Assembly (NCBI RefSeq): GCF_016903815.1
Contig: NZ_CP069973.1
DNA from: Escherichia coli
Lineage (GTDB): Bacteria; Pseudomonadota; Gammaproteobacteria; Enterobacterales; Enterobacteriaceae
Length of the DNA stretch: 64,000 bases
Direction: 5' to 3' (one strand)
Below the pieces are notes generated by a model. That model saw only the letters and a program-made list of their open reading frames with translations, did not search any database and was not told the DNA's origin. Shown piece by piece: positions 715 through 22,522 of the stretch (its first letter is position 1; each line of letters starts with the position of its first letter). Made by a program: the position numbers and the translations under genes.

Positions 715-775
715 TATAACCCTCTAATTCATTGTTATTTCAGTAAAAACTTCACATCTGTGAGGTTGTCTGGTA

Positions 776-2317
<1,542 letters not shown>

Positions 2318-2460
2318 TTATAAAAATTGCTAAAATGCTAAACCGGTTTAGGTGTTGATAATAAAGCTGACTTTTTAGCCAAAGCAATTATTTTCGCTAA
2401 ACCGATTTAGTAAATGTGACAGGCACGACAAATCGGGTTACAGATACAACAGCAGGATCA

Positions 2461-3381: not shown

Positions 3382-3940
3382 AAAGGCTCCAATATACTAA
3401 TTGCTAAACTAATTAAATCGATTTAGCAATTAAAGCATAAACGCTGCTCAGGAGAGAACAATATTCATCAATAGTTACGTGGTATTTTGTTGTGAGAATA
3501 TGTCGGAAATATGGTAAGTGATGAGATAGTCTTCCCCCACCTTCACGACCGCTTTCAATTGCGCCATAGCGAATAAATTTTAACCACAAAAGTAAGAGAA
3601 AGGCCATGATTGAACAGAAAATTACCGACATCGCTCAGGCTAAAACGAACTTTTATCTTTTCAGTATCAATGCTCGTGGCAATCACGCGGGAAAGATCAA
3701 ACTTTCTCACAACCAACTGCTTAACTGGCTGGTATAACAGCCAAAATGACCGTTGCGATGAAGGCTTGCGGGACATCCCATCACTGCCCACAGGAAATAA
3801 GGGAACTCAACTATGATGTAATATTGCATCCAGCACAACATGTTAAATCTTATCAATGGCGTCAGAAAAATGATTATAACAACGCACAGCAATAGCTGAA
3901 ACCTATCAATATAGAACTATACGACTGGTACCAATAAAAA

Positions 3941-3971
3941 GTCTGGACCTACAGAACGTCCAGGCTTTTTT
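3941..3971 (+). terminator. Rho-independent terminator-like hairpin (GTCTGGAC...GTCCAGGC followed by T-run)
   Basis: Inverted repeat with 9-nt loop followed by TTTTTT, seen directly in sequence. Confidence 0.45.
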
Positions 3972-4214
3972 GAAAATGCATCGGTTGATCTCGATGGAAG
4001 GACACAACTGATAGATCATGTTCTTGGACTTCTTACTGAATACGGCATTGTGTTCAGTAAAAGCGCAACAGAATTACGCCCCAAATTACCGGCATTACTT
4101 GAGGATGCGGCGATGCTGTACCTGCGGATTGGTACATGCCGTCTGAACAATATGGCTCCAGAAAAATGGCTGTGAACCGCCCCGGGTTTCCTGGAGAGTG
4201 TTTTATCTGTGAAC

Positions 4215-5105
4215 TCAGGCTGCCAGATCATCGTTTCCGATGGAAGCATAATAAGCTTTTTCTGCTTCTGCCGGAGGAGTATGGCCCAGCCTTCCCAGCA
4301 ATCGTCGATTGTTATACCAGTCCACCCACGTTAGTGTGGCCAGTTCCACTTCTGCACGGTTTTTCCAGCTCTTACGGTGTATTACCTCCGCTTTGTAAAG
4401 ACCATTGATGCTCTCAGCCATCGCGTTGTCATACGAGTCGCCTGTACTCCCTGTTGATGCCAGTAATCCGGCTTCTTTTAGTCGCTCCGTATAGGCCAGT
4501 GACACATACTGAGAGCCTTTATCGCTGTGATGGATGGTGCCAGACGGACGACGGGCCCACAACGCCTGCTCCAGCGCATCCAGCACGAATGTCGTTTCCA
4601 TAGACGATGAGACCCGCCACCCCACGATGTATCCGGCAAACACATCAATGATAAACGCCACATAGACGAAGCCCTGCCATGTGCTGACGTAAGTAAAATC
4701 AGCCACCCACAGCTGGTCAGGTCGTTCTGCCACGAACTGACGGTTTACGCGGTCGCCTGCGGCAACGGCTTTCCGGCTGATGGTCGTACGGACCTTTTTA
4801 CCCCGGAGAACACCGGCAAGTCCCATAACCGCCATGAGACGTGCCACTGTACATCTGGCCACCCTGATTCCTTCCCGTAACAACTGACGCCAGACTTTAC
4901 GCACACCGTACACCTGATGATTTTCATCGTATACGCGCTGTATCTCTCTCTTCAGCCAGTCGTCGTGCTGCGCACGGGCACTGCGTTTATCCGGATGATG
5001 TCGCTGTTGCTGACAATGGTAATACGTTGACGGGGCAATATGCAGTTCGCTGCATACCGGTCCGACCCCGTACTGCTCACGCAGCTTATCCAGCAGTGGC
5101 ATCAT
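4215..5105 (-). CDS. IS629-type transposase OrfB (DDE integrase core)
   Basis: 296-aa ORF with IS3-family DDE catalytic core (e.g. [16 protein letters not shown]). Confidence 0.9.
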
Positions 5106-5428
5106 TTTTTCCAGAGGCGGTCGAACTCCGCCTTCGCAAAATAAGCGGAAGCCTGGCGAAGGATATCGTTACTGCGGCGCAGTTCACGATTTTCACGTTC
5201 CAGCTCTTTCAGACGCTGACGTTCAGCGCTGGTGAGCCCACCATCACCGCCCCCGGTATCCCGCTCATGCTGGCGAACCCAGACACGCAGAGTCTCCGGC
5301 GTACAGCCAATCTTTGGAGCAATGGAACAAATTGCCGCCCACTGTGAGTCATATTCATCCTGACTTTCCAGAACCATACGAATCGCCCGCTGACGGACTT
5401 CGGGGGAAAAACGAGTATTTTTAGTCAT
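5102..5428 (-). CDS. IS629-type transposase OrfA (helix-turn-helix)
   Basis: 108-aa [26 protein letters not shown]...; IS3-family orfA, overlaps orfB for programmed frameshift. Confidence 0.9.
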
Positions 5429-5453
5429 CCTGTTTACCTCTTTCTCAGGGAGT

Positions 5454-8400
5454 TTAGTCTCCAGGATTTCCGGGGCGGTTCAGCTGTTCATTAAAACGTT
5501 GTCCAGGCTGATCATAAAGTGCGCGTAATGTCTCCGCGGATGGCCGCGGTTGCATTTGCTGCATGCAGGGTTTCTGGTGGTAATCAAAATACTGTGGCAG
5601 ATGCTGGATCTCTGCTTTGTTTTCAATTACCCGTTGAAGGGCTCTTTGACGCAACTCTCTTGATGATTTGTCACGGATCGATTCCAATTGTAGCTGGCTG
5701 CCGCTACTAATTCGCTTACGAGCAGCATCAAAATCAAAGCGAATAGCCAATAGACTCGGCGTAGTCTCACTTAGCTGCAATTCCCCTAATTGCACTGATT
5801 CACGCTTATCTTTAATATAAACAATGATCTTATCATCAAGTTCAAAGCTGAGGTCAGCACCGGATTCCGTAGTATATGGGTAGAGTAAGCAACCACTCGG
5901 TGATTCCTGAAAGTCAGTAGAGTCGATGTTGACTATATCTCGTAGGTCTACTTCTGTATCAGATAATGCCTGCCATAACTCAATTGGGCTTGACTCACTA
6001 CTATCGAAGTCATCTTCATCCATCTCTTGATTAGGATTAGCTCGCTCAATGATGGCATCAATTACTGGCTCGAGGTTAAACAGTAGTTCAATAAAAGTAT
6101 TACGCTGATTAAGTGAGCCACGTTGTAATGAAAGTTGAGTATTAATTTTAGCCTGGGAATATTTACCAGCCTTTATACTTTCTTCGATCGATAATCCTTT
6201 TTCATACACTATTCTATTAATAGTGCGATTATCAGGATCTAAGTCTATCAATAGCCGCTCTCCTAGGCCAGTGATGTAACAACGCAATTCATGCGCAAAG
6301 CGTGGGTTAGATGACCAGTTACATTGAAAATAATAGATCCCATCATTTTGTTCTAGAAGCTTCACTTCTTGCGGCCAATCATCTGTGCCCCAGCAAACAG
6401 GAATTACCTTATCCTGTGACTCAGACGCCACAACTTGATTAATCTCAGCTTGTTCCGGTGCTCGAATTGACTGCAGCAAAGGATCGAGCGCGATAGGTAT
6501 ACCGTCAACGGTTTGTTTTGCGCGTTCTAGCTCAGCCTGCACCAGTACTGGCATATCTTCACTAAATAGCTCCTCCACCATACGATATACTGCAAAGCAA
6601 TCTCGCCCAAAAGCATCAGTACTTTCGGGATTCTCTGGCTGGTAGCGATTATCTGCAGTTAATTCATCACTGAATTCAAGCAATCCAATCAGAGTAATTA
6701 CTGTCTGCTCCCCGACTTGTACCAGCAGTTTCTCTGGGCAAAGATCTCCATGAGGTAACTGCTTTTCATGAAAAGCATGAATGGTGTTGATCAACTTTTC
6801 CGCAATTGTAAAACGTTGGGATTGTACTAACACGTTCTCAGCAATAAACTGTGACCACGGTAGGCCATCCACATACTCGCTCACTACATACAAGCCGCCT
6901 TGTCCTAATAGTCCATAGGACTGCACCTTAGGAGTTGGCAGATTTATATGCGTAAGCTTATCGATCCGTTGCTTAAAAGCGTGGATACGGCGGTTAACAC
7001 CAGGTTGTTGAGGGGTCAAAATAACACCATCCCACAATTTTACCTGCAGAGCTTTCCCACCTTGTTCACAGTGATAACTGATGCTGCCAGTCGTAGCAAT
7101 AGCAGCAAGAGCAGAGTAAACCATAGACAACTGTTCAGGAAGTGGAGGAAACTCAATTAACACACCAACGCTGTTCATCCCTTCGCGAAAGAATTTGTTT
7201 TGCTTTAATTCTTGATAAATCTGGTTAGCTTCATCAAATTCTTGGCTATGTTCCTTAGTAGCTGCATTAAACTCATTGAGCATTATGTCCGCACGTGGAA
7301 AGCGTTTACTTGGCTCAAGGTTAAGAGCTTGCTCAAACCAGCTATTTAGAATACCGCTAAAAGGATCAGTTAATGGAGCTCTCCATTCAGGCATCTGTCC
7401 AGGAGTCAGTAATGATTCACCTGCAAAACAAATACGATAAGCAATTACAGCCAACATGAATACATCTAGGCGATAGGGCTCAACTGCTTCTTCAAAAGCA
7501 TCTTCGGGCAAAATATATGGAGCACTTTGCAATGTCGGACGCAATGACTCTAGGCTATTATGTCCCTCCAGTGAGGCTGCGCCAAAGCCAGTAACGACAA
7601 TGCTCTTCTGATCCCCTGCGTACCATAGATTGTGCGGGTCAATATCACAATGACTGATACCCAAGCTATGTAATTCCGAGAATGGAGCTAATAATGCACG
7701 AACGCGATCAATACGCTCAGATTTACTCCATCCGTCAGCTTCGCTATCTAGAATCTCATCTAATCGGCTAAAACTACGGCGTAACTCATACAGCTCACGG
7801 GCATCATCAGTTATATCCTCCTCGGATAGTTCCCTTACAGCACGCAACATATAATCCTGCATAGTTGCGCTGCCATGACGAACTAGGCGACCGACTCGAG
7901 TCTCACGCAGAGCTATCTCAGCCCACAATGTTTGCATTGCGTTTGCTACACCCAAGGCATCAAAGTTCCACTGCCGTAGCAGACCTCTGTGTTGACTATT
8001 GTCTTTGTGGGTAGCCCTGAATTCGTTGTAGACCATGTGAGGGTGACTAAAGAATGGCTTATCGTTCGCAAGATAACCGCTTTCTTTTAGTGGCAAAGGC
8101 CTGACTTTTGGTCCTTCAAAGAAGGACTTAATTATAGGTAATGCCTCATCAGAATTTGGTCGAGGCTTTCCCCCTTCAAAAAGATGAAAAAAGTTAGTGT
8201 GTTGCACCAGCTTTTCGTAATTTTTTGGGTTACCTATAGTCAAGAATTCATCACGGGTATGAACATAGCGCCTCTCACTTAATGGCAAGTTTTCAGGACC
8301 AGCTGTGCCACACAGCACTACATGAGCCTCAACATGCAAAAAGTAACCCAGCTTACGAGATAACTCTTCCTGCAACAAATCTTTTAGTCGCAGTGCATGC

Positions 8401-8678
8401 TCACGCTTGATCTGATAGGGACTTTTGCCTCGTGACTTACCATTTTGCAGCCACTTCCCCCCTTCAAATGTGATGTTACCATTCCACTCTTTAAGCTCGA
8501 CTAATAGCAGACGGTCAGCAGTAATAATTAGCATATCGATTTCCATCGACCCTTGGCTATCAGTAACAACTAAGCCAGCATAGCCAAACCAACTATCTGG
8601 TAACTGCTTAACCATCATATCAACTGTTTTGGTTTCGCTGCGGTGCAGGCCAGCACCACCTACTATCTGATACTTCAC
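5454..8678 (-). CDS. Large uncharacterized protein: N-terminal NERD-like nuclease-related domain followed by two protein-kinase-like domains and a ~370-aa C-terminal region; native 3' end replaced by IS629 sequence
   Basis: 1074-aa ORF; NERD-like motif [22 protein letters not shown]; kinase catalytic-loop-like motifs [11 protein letters not shown]...GFG and [11 protein letters not shown]; last 9 codons (LNRPGNPGD) are encoded by the IS629 inverted repeat. Confidence 0.7.
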
Positions 8679-8888
8679 GTTTTCTCCTGCACCACTAAAT
8701 TTTTGTTGGTGGTAGTCCAGTAAAAATGGATGTAGTTATCTAAGACAGCGCATAGATTGTGCCTGCCTAACCCTAAAAAGTGTAATTATGAAAAGTAACG
8801 CTAGAAATTCTATACCGTTCGCAAAGAGAACACTTTTCAAAGATATATCATCATCTTGAACATGTCACTATAATGGTGAATCCATAAG

Positions 8889-9050
8889 ATGCGAACACCA
8901 CATCTTGTGCCACTCAGCAAACAGGCTGTAGCCATACTGATAAAACTTCAGACATGGGCAGTTGAAAATGGTCTGGTCTTTACGGGAGCACATGACCCGC
9001 GTAAACCAATCAGCGAAAACACCGTAAATAAGGCCCTTAGGTGCCCTTGA
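8889..9050 (+). pseudogene. Tyrosine-recombinase (P4-type integrase) C-terminal fragment
   Basis: Translation MRTPHLVPLSKQAVAILIKLQTWAVENGLVFTGAHDPRKPISENTVNKALRCP resembles an integrase catalytic-domain segment; only 53 codons. Confidence 0.5.
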
Positions 9051-9145
9051 ACCACTATATCCAGACAGCCGTTGAGCTTAAGTTAACGTTACCGAGTGAC
9101 GTTGATATTCCCTCGGTGAGAGATAACCAAGGCACCATGAGGATG

Positions 9146-9773
9146 CTATTCGTTATAGTGTTCGAACGCCTCCGCAAGGTTTTTTACTGCCGTTAACACG
9201 TCCGGTTTAGGTATGATACTGATGTAATCGCTCTTCATCGTTTTCACGAACCGTTCTCTCATTCCATTACTCTGAGGGCTACTGACTGCCGTCGTGCAGA
9301 GCTCCAGATTCAACTCTCTGGCGAACTGCCGTGTTTCATGAGTTGTATAAGCCGAACCGTTATCGGTCAGCCACTGGATGGGCCATCCCGGTCTATCGCC
9401 AAAGCGTTTTTCTATCGCTCCTGACATGACATCCTGCACCGTTGCTTTGCCATAACCTCCCGTGCTTGCGGCCCAGTCTATGGATTCAAGATCGCAACAG
9501 TCCAGTGCGAACGTGACACGCAGTTTTTCGTCATCATCACAACCGAACTCAAAGCCATCGGCACACCAGCGCGGGTCGCTTTCCTTCACCGATATTCGGG
9601 CCTTTATGTTCCCTCTGCGGTCGTGAAGGTTTGTCATGTAATAACAACAGGTTATTCTCGCTCATTATTCGATAAACGCGATTTGCATTCACGAACTGCA
9701 GTCCTTCGTTAAGACTGCCGTCTGAGAATAGCCCGGACACGACGATAGCCATCGAATCGCTGAACAGCGTCAT
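9146..9773 (-). pseudogene. IS3-family transposase orfB remnant (frameshifted, truncated)
   Basis: Two overlapping minus-strand ORFs (9146-9637, 9549-9773) with integrase-core-like sequence (e.g. [20 protein letters not shown]); no orfA or inverted repeats. Confidence 0.6.
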
Positions 9774-9879
9774 TCGGCAGGCGATAAAGAAGGTGTCGTT
9801 ACGGGGAAGTCATCTTCACAGAGATTTTCAGTCAGTTAGCATTACCGACATTCATTCACCAACTTACCGGAGATAATCA

Positions 9880-10209
9880 ATGTCAAAACCCCGATGGACC
9901 ATTGAACAGAAAAGGCAGCACGTTGCTGCCTGGCGCGCCAGTGGTCTTACACGTCAGCAATACTGTGAACTCAACGATATTCCCTTCACATCACTTCGCG
10001 AATGGCCGCAGGATGTCGCAAAAGCTGAACGCCGGGCAAATGAACCGACCGTTCTTCCCGTTCATATTGCGCCACCACTGCATGCTGATGTACCACAGCC
10101 CGTCACGAATGAGCCAGTCACGCTCTTCCTTCCCGGCGGAGTACGGATGTGCTGTCAGCCGTCACAACTTACCGATGTCTTCAGGGCGCTCAAATATGCT
10201 CAGTCCTGA
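9880..10209 (+). CDS. IS66-family TnpA-like small protein
   Basis: 109-aa ORF immediately upstream of and overlapping tnpB. Confidence 0.55.
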   Translation: MSKPRWTIEQKRQHVAAWRASGLTRQQYCELNDIPFTSLREWPQDVAKAERRANEPTVLPVHIAPPLHADVPQPVTNEPVTLFLPGGVRMCCQPSQLTDVFRALKYAQS

Positions 10210-10588
10210 TAATGTCTTCATCGCGATTAAACCTGTTGACATGCGCCGGGGCATCGACACACTGACGCAGTATATACAGGATGAACTCCGGTCGACATGG
10301 CATGAGGGAGCCGCCTTCGTCTTTGTTAACAAAGTCCGTTCGCGTATCAAAGTTCTCCGGTGGGATAAACACGGGGTGTGGTTGTGTACCCGCCGTCTGC
10401 ACAAAGGCAGCTTCCGCTGGCCACGTGCAAATGATGCTGCCTGGCACCTAACTCCCGACGAGTTTAACTGGCTGATTGCCGGTGTTGACTGGCAGCAGGT
10501 TAAGGGACATGACCTGACGAAATGGGGCTGGCAGAATGAACCTGAACTGCGCCCTGAAAACACGCAAAATACACTGCTAACTCAGTGA
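10196..10588 (+). CDS. IS66-family accessory protein TnpB (Orf2)
   Basis: MLSPDNVFIAIKPVDMRRGIDTLTQYIQDELR... matches the IS66 Orf2 pattern; ATG at 10196 is in frame within the longer 9902-10588 ORF. Confidence 0.8.
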   Translation: MLSPDNVFIAIKPVDMRRGIDTLTQYIQDELRSTWHEGAAFVFVNKVRSRIKVLRWDKHGVWLCTRRLHKGSFRWPRANDAAWHLTPDEFNWLIAGVDWQQVKGHDLTKWGWQNEPELRPENTQNTLLTQ

Positions 10589-10594
10589 AAAATA

Positions 10595-11472
10595 ATGAAT
10601 ATCCGTATCTGGAGTGGTATACTCCCCTGTATGGATATCTCCGCTCTCAACACCACGAATGACATCGAAAAACTGCGTGCTATGGCACTTACCATGGTAC
10701 AAAAAGTCATGTCGGAGAATGCCGAAAAAGAGCGGGAATTACTGGAGAAAAGCCGGCGCATCCAGCTTCTGGAAGAAATGCTGAAACTGGTTCGTCAACA
10801 GCGCTTCGGTAAAAAATGTGAAACGCTGGCTGGTATGCAACGCTCCCTGTTCGAAGAGGATGTTGATGTCGATATCGCCGCGCTTACCGCACATCTGGAT
10901 AAACTGCTCCCGCAATCCCCTGAAGAAGACGAAAAAGCGTCCCGTTCACGCCCGATACGCAAACCCTTACCGGCTCATCTTCCACGGGTGGAAAAAATTA
11001 TCCAGCCGGACACTGACCATTGCCCTGAATGTGACGAGCCGCTGCACTATATCCGTGATGCGGTGAGTGAAAAGCTGGAGTATATTCCCGTTCACTTCGT
11101 GGTGAACCGTTATGTCCGTCCGCAATACAGTTGTTCCTGTTGCCAGAAGGTGTTCAGCGGTGAAATGCCGGCACATATCCTCCCGAAAAGTGCCGTTGAG
11201 CCATCAGTCATCGCACAGGTGATCATCAATAAATACGGTGACCACCTGCCTCTGTATCGCCAGCAACAGGTCTTTGCCCGTTCAGTGTCGGGCTGCCCGT
11301 CAGTTCGATGGCTGACATGGTTGGCGCGGCGGGTGCCGCATTATCTCCCCTGGCGGCGTTACTCCATCGCGAGTTGATAAACCGTCCGGTGGTGCATGCA
11401 GATGAGACTACCCTGAAGATCCTGAACACTAAGAAAGGCGGTAAATCCTGCTCCGGTTATCTGTGGGCAACC
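10595..11472 (+). pseudogene. IS66-family transposase TnpC, frameshifted and truncated
   Basis: N-terminal leucine-zipper-like region and zinc-finger motif CPECDEPL...CSCC; continuation ADETTLKILNTKKGGKSCSGYLWA lies in another frame (11308 onward). Confidence 0.75.
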
Positions 11473-12274
11473 AGCCTTCCGCCTCGTCCGGATCCGCTGT
11501 TTCCAGTGTCATCAGGAGCCGGCTGCATGCTTCCCCTGCCGTTTTACCCAGCGTGGCCCGCTGCGAAAGACGGATGCGGTTTCCGGCACCCAGCCCACTG
11601 CGGTTATCGATATGGACCTTAACCGGATCGGGTTCGGTGATAAGTGCGCGGGTATCCGGTGCCAGCAGACTCACCAGAGCCCGGATGCCTTCAGCATTGC
11701 GGGTGGGTAATCGCATGGCACCCAGTAAGGCCAGGAAACGGGAAACCGGCGTTGCCACCTGTTCAGCGGTGCCGGGTATACCGAGTCCGACCAGTCCCAG
11801 CAGACACTGCGATGTGGCATCGCGCCCCCCCTCCTCGAAAGTGGCCGGATACGCATATTTTCGCCAGATCCGGTAGTACTGGGTGGTGATGCGGTGGCTG
11901 AAAATATCCAGAAATGAGGTGAGCGCCTCATGTCCTTCACGGCGCTGCGCAATATCATCCAGCCAGGACGTCGGCAGAGGTGAGTCCACCCCATACATTC
12001 CGAGAAATGTCGTGCGGATCGTTGGGGGTAATGTCGGACGGTCTTCGTCGATCTCCACCGCTTTCAGGGTGCTGACCGGGAATCCCATCCCGGGCCAGGG
12101 CCTGAATCGCACCGGGTCATCGCCCGGATGGCTGGTCGTGCCCAGTTTTGGCCCGTCCGGATTTTCCAGCTCCAGCAGCTGGCAGAAACGATAAAAACTG
12201 GCCCGCCAGATATCGTTGTTAAGGGCCAGGGCCTGCGTCAGCCCGGTACGTGCTGGCTGTGATTCTCTTTTCAT
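11429..12274 (-). CDS. tssG: Type VI secretion baseplate protein TssG, C-terminally truncated at the IS66 junction
   Basis: 281-aa ORF with TssG-like segments (FYRFCQLLELENPDGPKLGT, PVRFRPWPGMGFP, FLDIFSHRITTQYYRIWRKY); 3' end overlaps IS66-derived sequence. Confidence 0.7.
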   Translation of the reverse strand: MKRESQPARTGLTQALALNNDIWRASFYRFCQLLELENPDGPKLGTTSHPGDDPVRFRPWPGMGFPVSTLKAVEIDEDRPTLPPTIRTTFLGMYGVDSPLPTSWLDDIAQRREGHEALTSFLDIFSHRITTQYYRIWRKYAYPATFEEGGRDATSQCLLGLVGLGIPGTAEQVATPVSRFLALLGAMRLPTRNAEGIRALVSLLAPDTRALITEPDPVKVHIDNRSGLGAGNRIRLSQRATLGKTAGEACSRLLMTLETADPDEAEGWLPTDNRSRIYRLS

Positions 12275-13929
12275 CTCAGTCGTTTCCCTGTGGGTTGCAG
12301 TACCAGTGTGAGCTGGTTGAAAAGGTGAACATCAGCATAGAGCGCAAAGAAACGGTGCAGCATCTCCCCGAAGAGATTCACATCGCCCTCGCCGGCAAAA
12401 TTATCCATATTCAGCGTGACCTCAATGTCCACGCCACGGAGCATAAAGCCCTTTTCAAAACGGCGGATCAGGGTGTGCTTCACAGCAACGATGGCTTCAA
12501 GCCGGCGGCGGTTCATTTCATCGTCGGTCCAGTCATAGAGCGCCAGCGTCCCCCGCAGCACCTCCGGATTGTCCATCATGCTGAGAAAGTTTGATCCGAG
12601 GTGACTCATCACCCGCCAGTGAAACCGGTCATTTGCCGGGGGATACAGTGGCATCGTCGGTGCGGTCAGGTTCAGGACTCTGACGGGGACTTTGCCGGTT
12701 TTGACCACCCTGTCCAGGAGCGTACTTTCCAGCGCCCTGCGCGGAAGCTGCCCGTTGGTCGCGGTGATTCGCATCGAGAGGGACTCCGGTTTATCGGACA
12801 ACTGCTCCAGCTCGAACGAACGCCCCCCGAGAACTAACCATGTGTCATACAGGCCGGAGGGTCCCCGTTTCACACGGGTGTGGTAATAACGTTCAGGAGC
12901 ATCGTGGCGCATCATACCGCCCCGGTGCCGGAAGCTGGTGAACGGGACATAAGGGTGTCTGCCGTTCTTCACCGAGCCGTGAATGTTATCGACGCTGTAA
13001 ATTTCGGTGTGACCATCCTGAAGACGCAGCGGCCTGAGCAGGTACTCGTTATCCAGCGGGTTAAGGATCAGCGGGTCGGCTTCCAGGGTAAAGAGATTGA
13101 TAACCGGCGCACAGTGCAGGCGGAAGTTTTCTGTCTCAAAAGGCAAACCGGATGACCAGGCTTCACTGAGCACAATGTCGATTTCAAACCAGGTACTGGC
13201 CGCAGTGAGCCCAATGGTGTCGAGGCCGCGCAGTTCAACAAACATAAACTTCGGACGGAAGCTGAAATACTCCAGCAGCAACTGGTAACCACTGAAGGCT
13301 GTATCAGCTTTCTTCCACAGGCAGTCATTGTCGTCAAAGCCCATGGGTCTGCACCAGCCGTCAAACTGACGACGTCCGGTATATGTCCCGGCATGACGCG
13401 CATACATGGCATGTACACGCCGGGTCATTGCCAGATGTAGCGCAGCACTTACCGGCGCCTCTGCGTTAAGAAAAATGGCGACTTTGTCGATCCCGGCTTT
13501 ACTCCAGTCCACTTTTTCAGGGCATTCGAAGCGCAGACGGATAGCAGAGCGGCCATCGGATTCAGTATGGAGACGGGCATCTGCAAGGTGCAGCGGTTGT
13601 AGCAACACATCGCGGGTCGCCCGGTACTGGCAGGCGGTTTTATGCGGCCCGACAGGACGGGACAGAACGGAAAAGCCTTCAGCCAGTATTTCGGCCTGAC
13701 GCAGACTACGCCAGTCAGGCGAGAACTCAACGATGGCCAGCGACGGGATAGTCCGCATATAGTGCGGCCACAGCAGACTCACCAGACCTTCGGTGAGCTC
13801 CGGCAGGTCATCATCCAGCTTTTCACGCAAACGTCCCATCAGGAAGGCAAAGCCTTCAAACAGACGTTCCACACTGGGATCGCAGGCACCAGGCTTATCC
13901 AGATTCAGCATTGCTGACGTAATCCACAT
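12271..13929 (-). CDS. tssF: Type VI secretion baseplate protein TssF (N-terminal region possibly disrupted)
   Basis: 552-aa ORF with TssF-like N-terminal motif DPSVERLFEGFAFLMGRLREKL; a further TssF-like piece lies in another frame at 13895-14116. Confidence 0.7.
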   Translation of the reverse strand: MWITSAMLNLDKPGACDPSVERLFEGFAFLMGRLREKLDDDLPELTEGLVSLLWPHYMRTIPSLAIVEFSPDWRSLRQAEILAEGFSVLSRPVGPHKTACQYRATRDVLLQPLHLADARLHTESDGRSAIRLRFECPEKVDWSKAGIDKVAIFLNAEAPVSAALHLAMTRRVHAMYARHAGTYTGRRQFDGWCRPMGFDDNDCLWKKADTAFSGYQLLLEYFSFRPKFMFVELRGLDTIGLTAASTWFEIDIVLSEAWSSGLPFETENFRLHCAPVINLFTLEADPLILNPLDNEYLLRPLRLQDGHTEIYSVDNIHGSVKNGRHPYVPFTSFRHRGGMMRHDAPERYYHTRVKRGPSGLYDTWLVLGGRSFELEQLSDKPESLSMRITATNGQLPRRALESTLLDRVVKTGKVPVRVLNLTAPTMPLYPPANDRFHWRVMSHLGSNFLSMMDNPEVLRGTLALYDWTDDEMNRRRLEAIVAVKHTLIRRFEKGFMLRGVDIEVTLNMDNFAGEGDVNLFGEMLHRFFALYADVHLFNQLTLVLQPTGKRLR

Positions 13930-14936
13930 TCAACAGTGCAATACGCAACCGTTCTTCCGGCCCTGCCTCTGTCTGCCGGCACTCATCCAGGACATCCTGC
14001 CATTGCCGGCGAAGACGGGGCGATTCATTCAGTTCTGTAAAACAGTATTTATCCGCCAGATAATCAATTCGTGTACGCATACTGAAAAGAATTCCGTATA
14101 AAGATTCAGCAGACAAAACTTTATCAGTCTGTAAAAATTAACGGAAGAGTCGATATTTCTCCCGGTCATCACCGGATGATTGTTGCAATAACCAGTGGCA
14201 TCAGAGACTGAACAGCCGTTTTTAACGCAACGTATTGCTCTGATGTATCAGGCCGGGTAACCCGAAAACACCTTTCCACCCGACATTGTCCGCCCGTATC
14301 CATCCCCCGCCAGGTCTGCTGCAGTAAATCCACCACTTGCGAACATTGTTCATCAACTGTGACACTGGCTCGCGGGTGACAAATACTCGTCTGGCTGAGC
14401 AGCAACAGGCATCGCATTGTTGCTCCTCCATGTTGTTCCCGCAACCAGCGTAATACCACCGGCGATGATGGACTGGTCGTGTGATTACGCTCAGTAATAC
14501 GTTCATAAAAGGAAGTACAGAATGCATGAATCTGTTGCCCGTTGATGTTTCCTTCTGCCGAATGGAGCGTGAAGTGAAATGCCAGCAGACGCGGCCAGTG
14601 GTCCACCCCCTGCTGAACAAAACGCCGGATTTCCCCCGGCGCTGAAAGTAAGGCTTCGGTTATTTGCACTATTTTACCCCTGTGAATTTTGTTAAGCCGG
14701 TGCAGACACACGGAAAACGCACATCAACACCAGCACAGTACGATACAAACACCAGTGACTGACGGGACGAAAGGAATAACGAATCAGTCAGGAAAGAGCT
14801 ACAACCTGCTGGCTGACCGGAGAGGGTCAGCAGGAAAATGAACGGTAATGTCGCCAGCACCAGGGACAGAGCTGATTTCCGCAATACCAGCGCCGGCATT
14901 TTGCACATTGCCAGCGTACCGGCATCACAACTCGTT

Positions 14937-15170
14937 TCATGCTGCTCCTCGTGATTCCTCAATTCGCTGCTGCATCCACTGCTCTACTTCACTTTTGTAC
15001 CAGCGGCTGCTGCGCCCCAGTTTGATGGGTTTAGGGAAATGGCCTTCACTGATCAGCTTGTAAAACCATTTGTCGGTCATACCAGTGAAGCTGGTGATGT
15101 AGTTCATGTCGATCAGGGGATCGTCGGCACGCAGCAATACGCTGTCGTGACCTGTCATTGAGGTCAACAT
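14937..15170 (-). CDS. alpA: AlpA-family phage regulatory protein (DNA-binding)
   Basis: 77-aa ORF, ...FTGMTDKWFYKLISEGHFPKPIKLGRSSRWYKSEVEQWM matches the AlpA helix-turn-helix pattern. Confidence 0.75.
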   Translation of the reverse strand: MLTSMTGHDSVLLRADDPLIDMNYITSFTGMTDKWFYKLISEGHFPKPIKLGRSSRWYKSEVEQWMQQRIEESRGAA

Positions 15171-15238
15171 GGTCAGAATGTCCTCTGTGAGATTTATGAA
15201 TGTTGGGCAAATGCGGGTGAATCTGCTGAGCTGAGCTT

Positions 15239-15841
15239 TCAGAGCTGGCCTGCTACGGGATACCAGGGATTACCGGCGAGGTAACGGGCTTCCGGATCGC
15301 GCACACCACGACGATCGCGGGCGAAATCACTGAACGCCCATATCAGCTCTTTGAGTCTCTCTTCGCAGTCCGGTGAACAACTGTCCAGCACCACATCCCG
15401 GGTGATCTGCTTCTGGTACGGTGCTGCTTCACCCGGTGATGCGAAGCCCAGTACGTTGCTCCAGGCATCCAGAATCAGCCGATCCAGTTCAGGGCCGTCG
15501 AAATACTCCTGTCTGACGCACAGCACCACGTGGTATTCCGGTTTTTCAGGATGACGTGTCAGGAGCCAGCAGAGGTCACGTCCGGGTGTTGCATTCATCA
15601 GCGCACTGACGGTTTCGATAAAGGCCATACCGAACCAGGTTTTTCTGTCGCTGAAGATGTTGCCATGTTCCCCCGGCAGACGAAGCAGGATCCGCCGTAT
15701 TCGGGAGCAGGACTGCTCGCGCAACACACGGTTGAGAACGCCGATGATTTTGTTCTGATAAGATGGCCAGAAGGGGGCCAGGCTATAGTCGAAATAAGGG
15801 ATAGCATTCATAAGATATGCTCCGTTATGCGCAGCCCACAA
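15239..15841 (-). CDS. YagK/YfjJ-family (inovirus Gp2-like) protein
   Basis: 200-aa ORF; family assignment from recollection of E. coli cryptic-prophage YagK/YfjJ proteins. Confidence 0.55.
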   Translation of the reverse strand: MWAAHNGAYLMNAIPYFDYSLAPFWPSYQNKIIGVLNRVLREQSCSRIRRILLRLPGEHGNIFSDRKTWFGMAFIETVSALMNATPGRDLCWLLTRHPEKPEYHVVLCVRQEYFDGPELDRLILDAWSNVLGFASPGEAAPYQKQITRDVVLDSCSPDCEERLKELIWAFSDFARDRRGVRDPEARYLAGNPWYPVAGQL

Positions 15842-16068
15842 TGCGTCCTGCCCGTGAATAAGCTGACGTGTTATGGTTTGCGGATGGGGTTGATGGAATA
15901 AGTGAAGAACCGGGGCAGAACGGGAAGATCAGGTCACCGACAAGGGACAGAACACCGGATGTGGTTCAGAGTGAATGATCTCCGTTGACTTCAGTTCACA
16001 TCATTAAGCAAGGCGGTAAGGTTTTACCGACGGAATGTTTCCAGGACAGGAAGCTCAGGATTTAAGCT

Positions 16069-16635
16069 TCAGAAGTGAGGCTTACGAGGACGCCCTGCAG
16101 CAGGTCGTTCAGGAACTTCACTGCAACCGTATGCGCACAGTCCGTCTTTTTGCTCTTCTTTCGCCAGATAATGCAGGACACCGCGAATATTATCGATGCT
16201 CCCGGGATCGTTATGACGCACGGGAATGTTGATGTTGTATGTATAATGCGGCTGATATGTACAGCGGTGTGCCGAACCGCTGTTATGCGTAATAGACTGC
16301 CAGCATTCCGTAATCCGCTCCGCAAAGGGATATATTTTTTTAACCCTCTGACGATCGAGCCAGAAAACCGCATGCGCATGAAAACCATGATCAGCCGTCC
16401 ATTCAATCACCCAGAAGAAACCAACGATATTTTCAAATTGTTCCACCTGCTCCAGCAGCATACGCAACTGCAATTCAAGCCAGCGATGATCAGGTTGTAA
16501 GAAATCAGGCGTATCTTTCCTGTAGAAGAAATCCATGCGTAAGGCCCGCAGGCGGGAATAGCGTGCGACCAACTGATTGATGTGATTGTCAAGTAAAGCG
16601 GTAAAAAACCAGTTTGGTGTGTAAGATTTAGGCAT
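16069..16635 (-). CDS. YagK/YfjJ-family (inovirus Gp2-like) protein, paralog
   Basis: 188-aa ORF sharing motifs with the 15239-15841 and 19308-20039 ORFs (e.g. HAHAVFWLDRQ vs HYHVILLLNKD). Confidence 0.55.
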   Translation of the reverse strand: MPKSYTPNWFFTALLDNHINQLVARYSRLRALRMDFFYRKDTPDFLQPDHRWLELQLRMLLEQVEQFENIVGFFWVIEWTADHGFHAHAVFWLDRQRVKKIYPFAERITECWQSITHNSGSAHRCTYQPHYTYNINIPVRHNDPGSIDNIRGVLHYLAKEEQKDGLCAYGCSEVPERPAAGRPRKPHF

Positions 16636-18128
16636 GCTGATGACTCCTGAAAGTTAATGACGTTTTAAGTGCTGTAAACGAATTAATGCTTTCGCTCATA
16701 ATCAGATCTAAAACGGTAATAACTTACAGACGGTATTTATCAGGCATGCTGTAACAGAATGGATACGTCGGTTATTAACGACACACAGCGTTGTGCTGAA
16801 GGGTATGAGTTATCTGATGGCATTGTCTATAGAGATGAGATAAACGAGGTGCGAAGAAAATACAGATTCAATACAACACAGTGAAATACAGAAAAATACG
16901 AACTGTAATCCCGCTGCCAGGCGGTTAGGAAACATATTACAACTATAAGCTCATGGTTTGTAAATTTGCTCTCAGTGAGTCTGAAAAAACGTTTATAAGG
17001 TCACCACAATAAACTCACACGCGCTTATTCAATCTGTTCTCCAGGATATGAACGTTAACGACACACGATAGCATAAGACAACATACAATGGATGAATAAT
17101 TTTCACCCAGTACCTTAAACAATACAACCGGCAACAAATATAATCAGAAATTCACTCTGTTAATTCTGTTGTTTATCCTGCGCTGTTAAACATGACGGAA
17201 CCATGGATACCTTATCAAAGAGTAAGCATTCAGTTAATCAGTAATGACAGAGAAATTGATGTTCACCAGAATAGTTAAAACACTTCAGATAAACAATCAT
17301 TGTTAAGCAAATACGGTTCATAATGGATAAATTAGAATCAATTACTGTTTTACTGAAGATGAGAATAGATGAATATCAACAATAGCGTAGTAGAGAATAA
17401 CTTACCTGAACATCATATGAGTTACAGTAGTTATGATTGAGGGATGGAGTGAATACGATAACAAGAGTAATACTAATGGAATGTGTAAAGATTGAGAGTG
17501 AGTGAAGACAGGAAGTAAATAACAATAGAGATTGTATGAAAAAGGGAGTGAATAAAGAATATATAAAGAATAAATATAATTATAGTAATAAACCTAAATT
17601 AAAATCATCCTTGTTTGATGAGTAAAAATAATTCTAGAAAATGAATCTGTCTGAAAACTCTTTCTCAGAGATTAACCGATCAGATGCTCAACGGACTCAA
17701 TAAATTGGCTGAGTCAGGTTACCTCATCCACACTCTATTTGTTTCTAGAAGGATCTACCATTTTGTTCATCTACCGGAACACATCAATTTAGTAACTCGA
17801 TAATATCGGTTATGTAGATATTTATCGTTGCTACCAATGCCTAGATTATTATTCTCCAAGTATTTTCTTGACTTACAGGCTAATTTTGAAACAAATGTCA
17901 TGCTATTTTAGGAAAAGAACCTATGCAAAAGTCTGCTATGAGCGAGGAGCAGATATTCATCTGGTATACAAAGACAATATCGCTTAAGTCATCAGTGCTG
18001 CCACTTTAACCACTAGCTCTGCTCTTTTTGGACTTTTGAGCTAAAAATTAAATCTGACAGTGTGATAAGGTGCAAGTTTCTGAAAATACGCCAGTTGTTT
18101 TACACTCAAAAGCCCCCATTACTATCTG

Positions 18129-18884
18129 ATGTTAATGGCGCAGCAGTTATCTTTCAGATTATTAAGGGGAAACAAGAGTATGGCAAGATGTACAGCTCCT
18201 GTACGTGGACATAGCTCAGCAGCAGCTGCTGCTGCCTGTCCCGCATGTCGTAATCGCAGTGGTTATCGCCGCAGTAGCTACAGTTATGATAGTTACCCTT
18301 CTTACTCATCAGGCTCTAGCGGTGGCGGAAGTTATGGAGGCAGTAGCGGTGGTTCCAGCAGCAGCGCGAAGCCACGTTGGTCAAAATCAGGGTCTTCCGT
18401 TTCTTACACAACAGCCCAAGTACAATCACTCACACCAATTCGACAAGCGGTAGAGAAACTTGCCATTGAGCAACCTGATCTGCGTGATGTCTTTCTTTGC
18501 CATGCTTGGGATGACCGACAAGGTATTGCCAAAGAGTTACACGATTTGCTCGAAGCGGCAGGTGTCAAAGTATGGTTCAGCGAAAAGGATCTTGCCCTTG
18601 GTGTTCCGATGATGCGTGCCATTGATAAAGGATTAGCAAACTCTCGAATCGGCTTGGTTTTAGTGACACCTGCATTGTTAAACCGTCTTCCTAAAGAAGG
18701 CGTTGCTGATAAAGAACTTTCCGCCTTACTGGCAGGCAACCAACTCGTTCCCATCGTGCATAACACGACGTATGAAGCTCTCCGTAATGTCAGTCCTTTG
18801 CTTGCATCCCGAAGCGGCCTCGACACGGGAGAAGATACATTGGCAGTTGTTGCAACAAAAATTGCAGAGCTGATCACTGTTTAG
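18129..18884 (+). CDS. TIR-domain protein with Ser/Gly/Tyr-rich low-complexity N-terminal region
   Basis: C-terminal ~140 aa DVFLCHAWDDRQGIAKELHDLLEAAGVKVWFSEKDLALGVPMMRAIDKGLANSRIGLVLVTPALL fits the TIR pattern; start codon uncertain (18129, 18135 or 18180). Confidence 0.75.
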   Translation: MLMAQQLSFRLLRGNKSMARCTAPVRGHSSAAAAAACPACRNRSGYRRSSYSYDSYPSYSSGSSGGGSYGGSSGGSSSSAKPRWSKSGSSVSYTTAQVQSLTPIRQAVEKLAIEQPDLRDVFLCHAWDDRQGIAKELHDLLEAAGVKVWFSEKDLALGVPMMRAIDKGLANSRIGLVLVTPALLNRLPKEGVADKELSALLAGNQLVPIVHNTTYEALRNVSPLLASRSGLDTGEDTLAVVATKIAELITV

Positions 18885-19307: not shown

Positions 19308-20039
19308 TCACCTGCCATCCAGTAAACGCCCCGGCCCACGACTGCAACCATAATTACGTTGACCAGAACCGTCATGCTGCTTCGTCTCATACTTCACGAG
19401 ATAACAGGCTCTCTCCATGGCTTTCTGCATCGCTTCCACATCACCACGCTTGACCCAGAGCACAGCGGATCCACCAGATTTTTTGTCAGAAGCTTTCCGG
19501 GTATCAGAACATCCACCCGACAAAGGCGTATCATCGGAAGAAGGGCGAGCATCAGATGATGCCGGTTTACGGAAAGGCGTCCGCCTGGAAAAATGAACCA
19601 GTCCATTACCCTGCCAGGGTTCAAGATGCAGAGCGCTACACCATGCCAGCTTGATCAGCGTCGCCAGCGAAGAAGGAACGGTGAAATCCCCTAGCGAGCA
19701 CCAGGTATCTTTGTTGAGCAGTAATATCACGTGATAATGTTTCCTGCCTTTTTCCTTGCCAAACTCCCGACACCAGAAATAACGCAGAGTGGTTGCACGC
19801 ACACGCTTGTTGGCACGTCGTTTATGTCGCTGGTAAGCCTGAATTTTTGCTTTCAGGGATTCGAAAAAACGAGAAATCACCGCTGAATCCGAATCGGGAT
19901 CCATGATGGTGACAGGCATATACTCAGGGAAACGTAAATCCATCCGGATTAACGAGACGACACGGTGTTGCGCCAGGGCACTGTTGAGAATACTTTCAAA
20001 ACGGGATAACCAGTAAGCATTGTGTATTGGTTGATTCAT
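19308..20039 (-). CDS. YagK/YfjJ-family (inovirus Gp2-like) protein, paralog
   Basis: 243-aa ORF MNQPIHNAYWLSRFESILNSALAQHRVVSLIRMDLRFPEY... parallel to the two other paralogs. Confidence 0.6.
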   Translation of the reverse strand: MNQPIHNAYWLSRFESILNSALAQHRVVSLIRMDLRFPEYMPVTIMDPDSDSAVISRFFESLKAKIQAYQRHKRRANKRVRATTLRYFWCREFGKEKGRKHYHVILLLNKDTWCSLGDFTVPSSLATLIKLAWCSALHLEPWQGNGLVHFSRRTPFRKPASSDARPSSDDTPLSGGCSDTRKASDKKSGGSAVLWVKRGDVEAMQKAMERACYLVKYETKQHDGSGQRNYGCSRGPGRLLDGR

Positions 20040-21682
20040 GATGAGAGATCTCCGTTGATTTGGATTGACTTCACATCATTAATCACCGCGGTAAAACTTT
20101 ACGGCATCCCGCCATTGAGCAACGCCAATGGCTCCTGATTAAAACAGAATGAATCCCCCACGAAGAAAAAATAAACCTACACGCAGAGTAAAACACACAA
20201 CAACGGCATAAATGGTTTTTAAAAACTACAAAGCCTGAAGGGAAACGGATCCACAGAACGTGCAAACAAAACACCAAAAACGCAATCAGAACGCTTTCTG
20301 CTGCTGTGAATCAACAACAATACCAAAACCTACAGCTTAACCACAAAACTCAATCACAGAGCCGAATAGCGTGTTTAAAACCTGTTTACAGATAACCCTG
20401 CCACAAGAACAAAGTTCACCAATATCAGAATCGATTTTCTCATCCTGAAAATGTTACGTTTCACTACACAGCATAAAAACGATTAACTATTGATAACGTA
20501 AACCTCATCTGAATCAAAACACCAGAACCAATCATCACGCTTTTCCTGAAAAGAGCCTTGCGCTGAGAAAAAACACCAGGGTCAGTTAATCATCTCATCA
20601 ATCTCATCGTTACAAAAACATCCATAAAACCATTTAACAAAATCATCGTAAGCACACAGTAAATCACGCCAGGTTATCTCAGCCAAATTTTCGTTTTACA
20701 TAAAGACACTTGTCTCAGGTTAACGACTAAAAACACAAAAACTCAGAAAAGGTTAAACGTAACTTCAGAAAAATAGAATATCATATTGATTGCTTAAACA
20801 GGAAAGATTGTTTTGTAGTAGCATTAAGCTGATTTTAGTTAACGTAAAAACAGGACTGACAGGTTTACTAAACTGGATGTGTATCAGACAAAGCAATGTG
20901 TATAACAATACTTAATGAAAACACTTGTAGAATTGTTTATGAAAATACGTGTATGTCTGGTAAAACACTTAGTAGAAAATACGTGTATAACACTTACTGA
21001 AATGCTTAGTAAAAATACTTAGTAAAATATGTGTAGAATTATCTATTTAAAAAGATATGTATATAACACTTAATAAAAACATGTGTATATAGTATCATAC
21101 CGACATTCTCAACATCTTCAGACTTCCATACATACTGGGTGTTGATTTCTCACTTTTACAGCCAGCATGGAGTTTTCTGTCCTAAAAACAGAGCAGATTT
21201 ACTCTGGAATTATTTTTCTACCCCCGTATTTCAGGCCCCAGAAAAGACAATCCGAAGCAAACCGTTTGTCAGCCTCCATATCATCTTTTACCCCCGGAAA
21301 GTGATCGCGTTTACAACCAGAATGACAGCCATACTGATTATGTCGTCTCCCGGCCCCCTTCACATATAACATGCATGTCTGTCATTGCTTACTGCTCCAC
21401 ATGACCGGATTTCACATACAGGATGCACATTCAGTGTTTTTATCGCTACTATAACAGACAGATTACTGTCGTCTTTACTCTTCAGATTGTTAATCTGACC
21501 ACAAGAACAGCCGAACGGCAAAACGCCCTCCACAAGGGGCACATGAACCATAGTTGATAGCATGTTTTTCCTAATCAAGGAATAGTTCAGGAATATTTTA
21601 TTGCATTAATAACTGGCGAATAATCGTTCTGTGAACACAAAATGCTTTTATTTGTAAATTTTATTGCATTGCACTCGTTTTA

Positions 21683-22522
21683 TTGATATGGGGTTTAATA
21701 ACAGATAACCCGGAAAGAAGGAGAAAACAGATGACATTACGGATTAACGATCAGGGGCGAGATAAACAGAATCAATTTTTATCGAAAAATGGAGAAAATC
21801 TGAATTCGTTAAAATCGCGTCATGTGCAGGATAGGCATTTACCTGAATGGCTTAAGGATAAAGTTGCAGCATTCTGGTTTTGTCTGGTGATAAAGGATAT
21901 GAAAGTGTCAGGGAGCAGTTACTATGAACTTACCATGCAACTTCCCACTTCTGAAGAATCTGTTTGCATCAGTAAGCTGTCATCCTCAACCCATGAGATT
22001 CGGCTGGAGATCATCAGGCGATGGATTGATAGTGTAGCGCAGATAGAAACGGAAGCTTTTACTAAAAATCTCGTTGATGCCATCTATAAAAACTGGAAGG
22101 AAATCGGGAACAAAAACCAGGCCACATGGCTTAAAAAAAATCCGGAACAACTCGAGTGGGCATGGAAATATATTAACATTCGTATTCCCGAGTCACATTT
22201 AACCTGGTTTTGCCCCGTCAATAACGAAGAGAAACGCATTGCCATCTTAGCATTGCTTAAAATACTGTATCCCGGAGATATACCATGCCAGTACAACGAC
22301 AAAGAGTTTCATGTCGGGATCTGCGCTGAAGAACATTTTTACAGAAGAATGCACGACGCTTTCAGAAAACAGTTTATCGACGGGAAAAAAGATAAACGGG
22401 TACAAATTAACGTAAAGATATCACCGTCCGCAAAAAGCGCTCTGGACAGACTGACCAGAGCGAGGAAAACAACACAGCAGGCTATTCTGGAACAACTGAT
22501 TCTGAACGGTAGACTGGATTAA
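21683..22522 (+). CDS. Hypothetical protein (no recognisable domain; possible ribbon-helix-helix-like C-terminus)
   Basis: 279-aa ORF; likely true start at MTLRINDQ (21731); function unknown. Confidence 0.5.
   Translation: MIWGLITDNPERRRKQMTLRINDQGRDKQNQFLSKNGENLNSLKSRHVQDRHLPEWLKDKVAAFWFCLVIKDMKVSGSSYYELTMQLPTSEESVCISKLSSSTHEIRLEIIRRWIDSVAQIETEAFTKNLVDAIYKNWKEIGNKNQATWLKKNPEQLEWAWKYINIRIPESHLTWFCPVNNEEKRIAILALLKILYPGDIPCQYNDKEFHVGICAEEHFYRRMHDAFRKQFIDGKKDKRVQINVKISPSAKSALDRLTRARKTTQQAILEQLILNGRLD

What the first reader, a model, noticed from the sequence alone, without database searches (positions are those of the whole stretch)
11429..14116. Type VI secretion remnant (tssF-tssG only) fused to a truncated IS66 element
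Only two T6SS baseplate genes are present. tssG's last ~15 codons read into IS66-derived sequence, and the IS66 tnpC is itself truncated at ~11470, so a deletion with one endpoint inside the IS removed the rest of both. The TssF N-terminus appears split between two frames (13895-14116 and 12271-13929). No tssB/C, hcp, vgrG or other core genes are in the window.
Basis: partly seen in the sequence, partly recalled or inferred. Interest (0 to 1): 0.45.

Follow-up and report, generated by a model that had tools for sequence, protein, structure and literature searches.

The report
Decayed type VI secretion gene remnant
This is a dead 2.45-kb leftover of a roughly 38-kb E. coli type VI secretion gene cluster, cut down by two deletions inside a pheV genomic island; it is ordinary genome decay and RefSeq already annotates it as pseudogenes.

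Summary
The observation mostly holds. Window 11465-13916 is T6SS DNA that carries only tssG (codons 1-270 of 362) and tssF (codons 31-578 of 589). On the left it is joined to an IS66-family element, ISEc49. That element's tnpC is cut at codon 280 of 521 and has a 1-bp frameshift. The junction shows 5 bp of microhomology (GGGCA).

One claim is wrong: the TssF N-terminus is not split by a frameshift. The 73-aa ORF at 13895-14116 is the first 55 codons of an unrelated island gene ("ECs1377 family", 92% identical). It is fused to tssF at 13916|13917. This is a second deletion junction.

E. coli STEC367 and NY1601 carry the complete cluster (tssFG 97-98% identical) in the order ECs1377 gene – tssBCKL – hcp – tssH – vgrG – tssM – tssA – tssF – tssG – tssJ – tssE. 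The right junction is therefore a single in-place deletion of about 24-26 kb.

Among 5426 complete E. coli genomes, 58 carry both junctions and 24 carry the intact form of this cluster. None was found with only one junction. The window's sublineage has also gained a nonsense mutation in tssF (W579*).

No other T6SS gene lies in the window. The finding is known and of low interest.

The parts
9790..11469 (+). Truncated ISEc49 (IS66 family). It comprises the left end, tnpA (9880-10209), tnpB (10196-10588) and the first 280 of 521 codons of tnpC (10631-11469). The right part of tnpC and the right end of the element are missing.
   Evidence: Pfam finds TnpB_IS66, LZ_Tnp_IS66, zf-IS66 and DDE_Tnp_IS66. 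It is 98.3-98.6% identical to annotated intact ISEc49 copies, with the match starting at window 9790-9793. Alignment to the intact copy L009 shows where similarity ends.
11285..11286 (+). 1-bp deletion in tnpC, between these two bases. Intact copies have an extra A here, near codon 219. The deletion causes the frameshift between ORFs 10595-11377 and 11308-11622.
   Evidence: Alignment of the window to intact ISEc49. PGAP flags the gene as 'frameshifted'.
11465..11469 (.). Left deletion junction. The 5 bp GGGCA are shared by ISEc49 tnpC and tssG at the crossover point (microhomology).
   Evidence: Three-way alignment of the window, intact ISEc49 and intact tssG.
11465..12274 (-). tssG pseudogene, codons 1-270 of 362, lacking 92 C-terminal codons. 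The ORF continues for 11 codons plus a stop through IS-derived sequence (11464 down to 11429).
   Evidence: Pfam T6SS_TssG covers profile positions 2-255 of 304. Alignment to the intact 362-aa tssG of STEC367 and NY1601. PGAP labels it 'missing C-terminus'.
12271..13916 (-). tssF pseudogene, codons 31-578 of 589, lacking 30 N-terminal codons. The listed ORF starts at an ATG at 13929 that lies in the neighbouring gene fragment, which adds 4 foreign codons (MWIT).
   Evidence: Pfam T6SS_TssF starts at profile position 32. BLASTP shows 99% identity to residues 31-578 of intact TssF. Alignments.
12271..12273 (-). Nonsense mutation W579* in tssF (TGG>TGA, the changed base at window 12271). The same base change makes tssG E2K. 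It is absent from another remnant copy, so it arose after the deletions.
   Evidence: Codon-level comparison with the intact copies. Alignment with the remnant in APEC E18005, which still has TGG.
13915..13916 (.). Right deletion junction (13916|13917). The 2 bp TG are shared by tssF and the ECs1377-family gene.
   Evidence: Three-way alignment of the window, the intact ECs1377-family gene (L005) and intact tssF (L003).
13917..14080 (-). The first 164 nt (about 55 codons) of a 207-aa 'ECs1377 family / DNA-binding' island backbone gene.
   Evidence: BLASTP shows 92% identity to the N-terminus of the intact protein from CFSAN064036 and nothing to TssF. The intact gene is shown. PGAP labels it 'hypothetical, missing C-terminus'.
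14169..16635 (-). Island backbone genes lying in the same order as next to the intact T6SS cluster: a 166-aa hypothetical protein, an HTH regulator (14937-15170), a hypothetical protein and YagK/YfjJ.
   Evidence: The same gene order lies beside tssB in STEC367, and a partly similar backbone in NY1601, compared with the window annotation.

Best explanation
This is the non-functional leftover of a complete T6SS cluster that once sat at this position in a tRNA-Phe (pheV) genomic island. The cluster had the T6SS-1-type gene order.

Two illegitimate, microhomology-associated deletions removed almost all of it.

1. Right deletion (about 24-26 kb). It ran from codon 55 of the island's ECs1377-family gene to codon 31 of tssF. 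It removed tssB, tssC, tssK, tssL, the OmpA-family (TagL-like) gene, hcp, tssH, vgrG with its effectors, PAAR, tssM and tssA.

2. Left deletion. It ran from codon 270 of tssG to codon 280 of the tnpC gene of an ISEc49 (IS66-family) copy lying on the integrase side. It removed the tssG 3' end, tssJ, the second vgrG with its effectors, tssE, the end of the cluster, and the right half of the IS.

What remains is 2452 bp (11465-13916) carrying two truncated baseplate genes and no sheath, tube, spike, membrane complex or ATPase. It cannot build or fire a T6SS. Decay is continuing: tnpC has a 1-bp frameshift, and the window's sublineage gained a nonsense codon in tssF.

Shown: both junction positions, the microhomologies, collinearity on the right side, and the population counts. 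Inferred: that the left junction is one simple deletion, the order of the two events, and the lack of function.
For: - Family identity and truncation: Pfam and PGAP pseudogene calls.
- Exact limits of T6SS similarity, 11465-13916, against intact clusters that are 97.3-98.2% identical.
- STEC367 and NY1601 have the ECs1377-family gene – hypothetical – DUF4222 – tssB...tssA – tssF – tssG – tssJ...tssE on the same strand and in the same order as the window's flanks; A19 shows the same cluster order over the stretch fetched, which stopped short of tssB. One deletion therefore explains the right junction: 26,337 bp in STEC367 coordinates and 23,742 bp in NY1601 coordinates.
- The 73-aa ORF is the ECs1377-family N-terminus, not TssF.
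- Microhomology: GGGCA on the left, TG on the right.
- Both junctions occur in 58 of 5426 complete genomes. The intact tssG 3' end with tssJ occurs in 24. No genome was found with one junction only.
- The island is GI-pheV: tRNA-Phe and the integrase lie upstream in strain 222.
- A later W579* is restricted to the window's sublineage.
- No other tssF-like DNA was found in the strain 222 chromosome at blastn sensitivity.
- T6SS-bearing GI-pheV islands and T6SS loss by deletion are both described in the literature (PMC11537424, PMC10711316).
Against: - No genome was found with ISEc49 intact at the expected position and orientation next to a complete cluster. The ancestral state of the left side, and the size of that deletion, are therefore inferred.
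- No intermediate with only one deletion was found, so the order of the events, or whether they formed in one complex rearrangement, is unknown.
- The tssF ORF is still open for 548 codons. Substitutions specific to the window's branch (15 synonymous, 8 non-synonymous) do not differ from those on the intact branches (44 and 17). Sequence alone therefore does not prove loss of constraint; the pattern fits a recent event.
- Expression was not tested.
Confidence: 0.9

Rival explanations
1. tssF is complete at its 5' end but disrupted by a frameshift or sequencing error near 13900-14100, so the 73-aa ORF is the TssF N-terminus.
For: Two ORFs on the same strand overlap at 13895-13929. From raw sequence alone this looks like a frameshift.
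Against: The 73-aa ORF has no similarity to intact TssF (E=35) and is 92% identical to an unrelated island protein. DNA similarity to intact tssF ends abruptly at 13916, and 91 nt of the tssF 5' end are absent. The identical junction occurs in 58 complete genomes.
Confidence: 0.01
2. The tssF-tssG fragment was brought in from elsewhere and did not decay in place. Possible routes are IS66-associated mobilisation of flanking DNA or recombination with a T6SS island in a donor.
For: An IS66-family element abuts the fragment. No ancestor with ISEc49 beside a complete cluster was found. No single-deletion intermediates were found.
Against: The IS junction is internal to tnpC and not at an IS end, so it is not a transposition product. 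The right flank is collinear, in order and strand, with the backbone that lies beside tssB in intact islands. Import would produce this only by coincidence.
Confidence: 0.06
3. The truncated TssF and/or TssG are still made and have a use, for example feeding or interfering with another T6SS baseplate in the cell.
For: The tssF ORF is open for 548 codons with an in-frame ATG at 13929. The remnant is nearly identical across 58 genomes. The window branch shows no excess of non-synonymous changes.
Against: Both proteins lack terminal segments. The window's sublineage has gained a stop codon in tssF. The strain 222 chromosome has no other tssF-like DNA at blastn level. Near-identity among the copies is what a recent origin would give. 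PGAP calls both pseudogenes.
Confidence: 0.03
4. Assembly artefact: a chimeric join of IS, T6SS and island sequences.
For: Repeated IS elements often cause misassemblies.
Against: Both junctions are found at full length in 58 independently sequenced complete genomes from different hosts and countries.
Confidence: 0.005

Closest known systems
Complete T6SS cluster on tRNA-Phe-type genomic islands of E. coli STEC367 (NZ_CP041429), NY1601 (NZ_CM135959) and A19 (NZ_CP028756)
   Same: The tssF-tssG DNA is 97.3-98.2% identical. The island backbone beside tssB is the same in STEC367 (ECs1377-family gene, 166-aa hypothetical, HTH regulator, inovirus Gp2-family gene, GTPase and the yee module); NY1601 shares part of it.
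   Different: Those clusters are complete, about 38 kb from tssB to the VasL end in STEC367. The window keeps 2.45 kb with both genes truncated.
E. coli T6SS-1 organisation (the 'Ec536' type at the argA/tRNA-Met site; classification as used in PMC8715443)
   Same: The IHE3034 cluster has the order VasL-tssE-tssJ-tssG-tssF...tssA-tssM...PAAR...vgrG-tssH. Its tssFG is about 71% identical in DNA to the window.
   Different: It sits at a different chromosomal site and is a different, much more common variant (about 300 genomes). The assignment of the remnant's parent cluster to T6SS-1 is inferred from gene order and was not tested by phylogeny.
T6SS loss by internal deletion in E. coli ST410 and ST131 (PMC10711316)
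   Same: [quoted passage not shown]
   Different: That case involves a T6SS-2 cluster at another locus with no mobile element at the deletion site. Here there are two deletions, and one of them ends inside an IS.
ISEc49 (IS66 family)
   Same: The shared 1.68 kb is 98.3-98.6% identical, with the same tnpA/tnpB/tnpC order. The TnpA protein is the same RefSeq entry (WP_000042910.1).
   Different: The window copy lacks tnpC codons 281-521 and the right end, and it has a 1-bp frameshift. It cannot transpose on its own.

Membership tests
Type VI secretion system (functional cluster) | A full set of core genes: tssA-C, tssE-G, tssJ-M, hcp, vgrG and tssH | tested here: not met
   Only tssF and tssG fragments are present in the 64-kb window (annotation; Pfam). 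It is a remnant, not a system.
TssF (Pfam PF05947) | Significant full-length match to the family profile | tested here: met
   E=7e-149, 497 bits. The match starts at profile position 32. The protein corresponds to residues 31-578 of the 589-aa intact protein. It is homologous but truncated at both ends.
TssG (Pfam PF06996) | Significant match to the family profile | tested here: met
   E=2e-56, covering profile positions 2-255 of 304. It corresponds to codons 1-270 of 362. It is homologous but lacks the C-terminal quarter.
IS66 family insertion sequence | tnpA, tnpB and tnpC in that order | tested here: met
   Pfam hits and the PGAP annotation. It is 98% identical to ISEc49.
IS66 family insertion sequence | Complete DDE transposase TnpC | tested here: not met
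   Cut at codon 280 of 521, plus a 1-bp deletion near codon 219.
IS66 family insertion sequence | Both terminal inverted repeats with a target-site duplication | tested here: inconclusive
   The left end is present, since similarity to ISEc49 begins at 9790-9793. The right end must be missing because the element is cut within tnpC. A repeat search on the intact copy did not delimit the terminal repeats.
GI-pheV (pheV-tRNA integrated genomic island of E. coli) | Located between pheV with its P4-type integrase and the kps / yghD-gsp region | tested here: met
   In strain 222 the tRNA-Phe gene and the integrase lie about 29 kb beyond window position 1, and the kps and gsp genes lie inside the window. 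The same site holds the module in APEC E18005. The window itself contains no tRNA.

The most novel reading that the evidence does not exclude
The N-terminally clipped TssF (an open ORF of 548 TssF codons behind a new ATG and the promoter region of the ECs1377-family gene) is expressed. It would be kept because it does something on its own, for example as an orphan baseplate-like protein that interferes with incoming or resident contractile systems. That could explain why the remnant (58 genomes) outnumbers the intact cluster (24 genomes).
Probability: 0.03. Interest if true: 0.5.

Novelty: already known. Interest (0 to 1): 0.1.

Why it matters
It matters little beyond annotation. The result fixes the exact anatomy of a decayed T6SS in the pheV island of some E. 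coli lineages that include urinary and avian isolates: two deletion junctions with microhomology, and one later nonsense mutation.

It corrects a misreading (a supposed frameshift that is really a second deletion junction). It shows that these strains should be scored T6SS-negative for this cluster even though tssF and tssG give hits.

The two junction sequences are specific markers for this island lineage. They occur in 58 of 5426 complete genomes, which is more often than the intact cluster (24 genomes).

Tried and rejected
- Frameshift in tssF. Rejected by alignment to intact clusters and by BLASTP of the 73-aa ORF.
- Single-deletion intermediates. I searched with 160-nt probes across each junction. 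Exactly 58 genomes carry each junction and none was found with only one.
- An ancestor with ISEc49 beside a complete cluster. The three intact-cluster islands inspected (STEC367, NY1601, A19) have other content on that side. NY1601 has only IS66-family fragments in the opposite orientation. This remains unresolved.
- A second T6SS in the same chromosome. A blastn search with tssF found one place only in strain 222. Very divergent T6SS types would escape this search.
- Relaxed selection on the remnant. The counts on the window's branch (15 synonymous, 8 non-synonymous) against the intact branches (44 and 17) are too small to separate.
- Terminal inverted repeats of ISEc49. The repeat search did not find them.
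- Assuming the window equals strain 222 throughout. It does not to the left of position 5483, so that part was checked separately.
Full report
**What is in the sequence**

ORFs on the minus strand at 11429-12274 and 12271-13929 match Pfam TssG (E=2e-56, profile positions 2-255 of 304) and TssF (E=7e-149, profile positions 32-597 of 608). The small ORF at 13895-14116 matches no family. On the plus strand, IS66-family tnpA (9880-10209), tnpB (10196-10588) and a broken tnpC lie immediately to the left. The T6SS stretch has 56-60% GC, compared with 48-52% in the flanks.

**Where the window comes from**

The region 9000-16000 is 100% identical to the chromosome of E. coli strain 222 (NZ_CP020516) and several other strains. 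By blastn the window matches strain 222 at 100% over 5483-28000 and at 99.995% over 26205-64000. It differs to the left of 5483.

RefSeq/PGAP already annotates the locus as follows:
- an IS66-family transposase, frameshifted and missing its C-terminus;
- tssG, missing its C-terminus;
- tssF, missing its N-terminus;
- a separate hypothetical protein, missing its C-terminus (window 13904-14080).

The window lies in the pheV island. In strain 222, tRNA-Phe and a P4-type integrase lie about 29 kb beyond window position 1. The kps capsule genes, the gsp type II secretion genes and sslE fill the right part of the window. The window itself holds no tRNA.

**The intact relative**

In 24 of 5426 complete E. 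coli genomes, tssF-tssG that is 95-99% identical sits in a complete T6SS cluster. In STEC367, NY1601 and A19 the order, read in the window's orientation, is:

... VasL-domain gene – tssE – effector/immunity genes – vgrG – tssJ – tssG – tssF – tssA – tssM – PAAR – effectors – vgrG – tssH – hcp – OmpA-family gene – tssL – tssK – tssC – tssB – DUF4222 gene – hypothetical – 'ECs1377 family / DNA-binding' gene.

In STEC367 the backbone then continues with a 166-aa hypothetical protein, an HTH regulator, a hypothetical protein, an inovirus Gp2-family gene, a GTPase and the yee module. The backbone part of this order is what lies to the right of the remnant in the window.

The gene order resembles the T6SS-1 organisation. 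The IHE3034 cluster near argA has about 71% identical tssFG DNA, and PMC8715443 assigns that 'Ec536' type to T6SS-1. I infer this class assignment from gene order only.

**Right junction**

Alignment with the intact clusters shows that similarity ends exactly at window 13916, which corresponds to tssF codon 31.

From 13917 onward the window matches the 5' 164 nt of the ECs1377-family gene. That gene is intact (207 aa) in strain CFSAN064036.

The 73-aa ORF is 92% identical to the N-terminus of that protein (E=1e-39) and has no similarity to TssF (E=35). The supposed split N-terminus of TssF is therefore a fusion point between two unrelated genes. Two base pairs (TG) are shared at the crossover.

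Both genes are on the same strand and in the same order as in intact islands, so one deletion explains the junction. It measures 26,337 bp in STEC367 coordinates and 23,742 bp in NY1601 coordinates. It removed tssB through tssA.

**Left junction**

The IS is ISEc49. It is 98.3-98.6% identical to annotated intact copies whose tnpC encodes 521 aa. The match starts at window 9790-9793.

Compared with an intact copy, the window has a 1-bp deletion between 11285 and 11286 (near codon 219). It loses similarity after 11469, which is codon 280.

Similarity to intact tssG begins at 11465, corresponding to codon 270 of 362. The 5 bp GGGCA (11465-11469) are therefore common to both parents.

The break is internal to both genes and not at an IS end. 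It is thus an illegitimate-recombination deletion, not a transposition product.

None of the three intact islands inspected has ISEc49 in the required place and orientation. What exactly was lost on this side is therefore inferred: at least the tssG 3' end, tssJ, vgrG with its effectors, tssE, and more than 10 kb in STEC367.

**Further decay**

Relative to both intact copies, the window's tssF has TGG>TGA at codon 579 (window 12271). This ends the protein 11 codons early and changes tssG codon 2. The remnant in APEC E18005 still has TGG, so this nonsense mutation arose after the deletions, in the window's sublineage.

Substitutions private to the window's branch number 15 synonymous and 8 non-synonymous. 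The two intact branches together have 44 and 17. The counts are too small to show relaxed constraint, and they fit a recent loss.

**Distribution**

Probes of 160 nt across each junction each match at full length in exactly 58 complete genomes. The 7-kb configuration also occurs in 58. The tssG 3' end with tssJ, which is absent from the remnant, occurs in 24. No genome with only one junction was seen.

The remnant copies are at least 99% identical to each other over tssFG; the copies listed differ from the window by about one base. In APEC E18005 the same module sits at the same chromosomal site, but without kps.

The strain 222 chromosome has no second place similar to this tssF at blastn sensitivity.

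**Other T6SS genes in the window**

There are none. This rests on the PGAP annotation of the identical sequence for 5483-64000 and on Pfam scans of the ORFs of at least 150 aa in 1-5482, which are a sucrose porin, a PfkB kinase and an IS3 transposase.

**Interpretation**

The locus is the in-place wreck of a T6SS cluster carried by a pheV island. Two microhomology-associated deletions cut it down, and point mutations have damaged it further. With two truncated baseplate genes and no sheath, tube, spike, membrane complex or ATPase, it cannot function as a T6SS. This last step follows from established knowledge of T6SS composition and was not tested experimentally.

T6SS-bearing GI-pheV islands (PMC11537424) and T6SS loss through large deletions in E. 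coli lineages (PMC10711316) are both described in the literature.

**Verdict**

The frameshift idea is wrong and is replaced by a second deletion junction. The feature is real, ordinary and already annotated as pseudogenes. Interest is low.

Noticed in passing
window 5454-8678 (-): A large gene with a NERD nuclease-related domain and a protein-kinase domain, annotated 'AAA domain-containing protein' (1652 aa) in strain 222. In the window it is cut to 1074 aa next to an IS3-family element. It looks like a candidate phage-defence gene. A PADLOC scan was attempted but failed on wrong coordinates and was not repeated.
   Followed up: partly
window 1-5482: The window differs from strain 222 here. 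A sucrose porin (776-2293, -), a PfkB sugar kinase (2461-3381, -) and an IS3-family transposase (4215-5105, -) abut the truncated NERD-kinase gene. In strain 222 the sucrose module lies about 12 kb further out, so the window's strain probably has an extra IS3-associated deletion.
   Followed up: partly
window 18180-18884 (+), inside a low-GC patch at about 17000-18250: A TIR-domain protein (Pfam TIR_2, E=3e-15) sits alone in a stretch of 30-39% GC between the YagK/YfjJ gene and an inovirus Gp2-family gene. It may be a defence gene cassette.
   Followed up: partly
window 9760-9792: 33 nt directly abutting the ISEc49 left end are 100% identical to sequence annotated as ISEc39 (IS256-like) in many genomes. 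ISEc49 appears to sit against an ISEc39 fragment.
   Followed up: no
window 8886-9750: A fragment of a tyrosine recombinase/integrase (8886-9041, +) and a frameshifted IS3-type DDE (rve-domain) pseudogene (9078-9750, -). These are further debris, possibly the remains of the integrase end of the T6SS-bearing island.
   Followed up: no
window about 26200-31000: The island's 'yee' module: DUF932, an antirestriction protein, RadC, DUF987, the YeeU/CbtA type IV toxin-antitoxin pair, DUF5983 (truncated), DUF957 and DUF4942. It is followed by an IS110 fragment and the kps capsule locus.
   Followed up: no
window about 36100-47000: A group 2 capsule (kps) locus. Its central region encodes a family 29 glycosyltransferase, a CDP-glycerol glycerophosphotransferase and a TPR protein. 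The K type was not determined.
   Followed up: no
L014 (APEC E18005) 19887-27621: The same remnant module occurs in an avian O78:H51 strain at the pheV/yghD site without kps. PGAP annotates tssF there with its normal 3' end (no W579*).
   Followed up: yes
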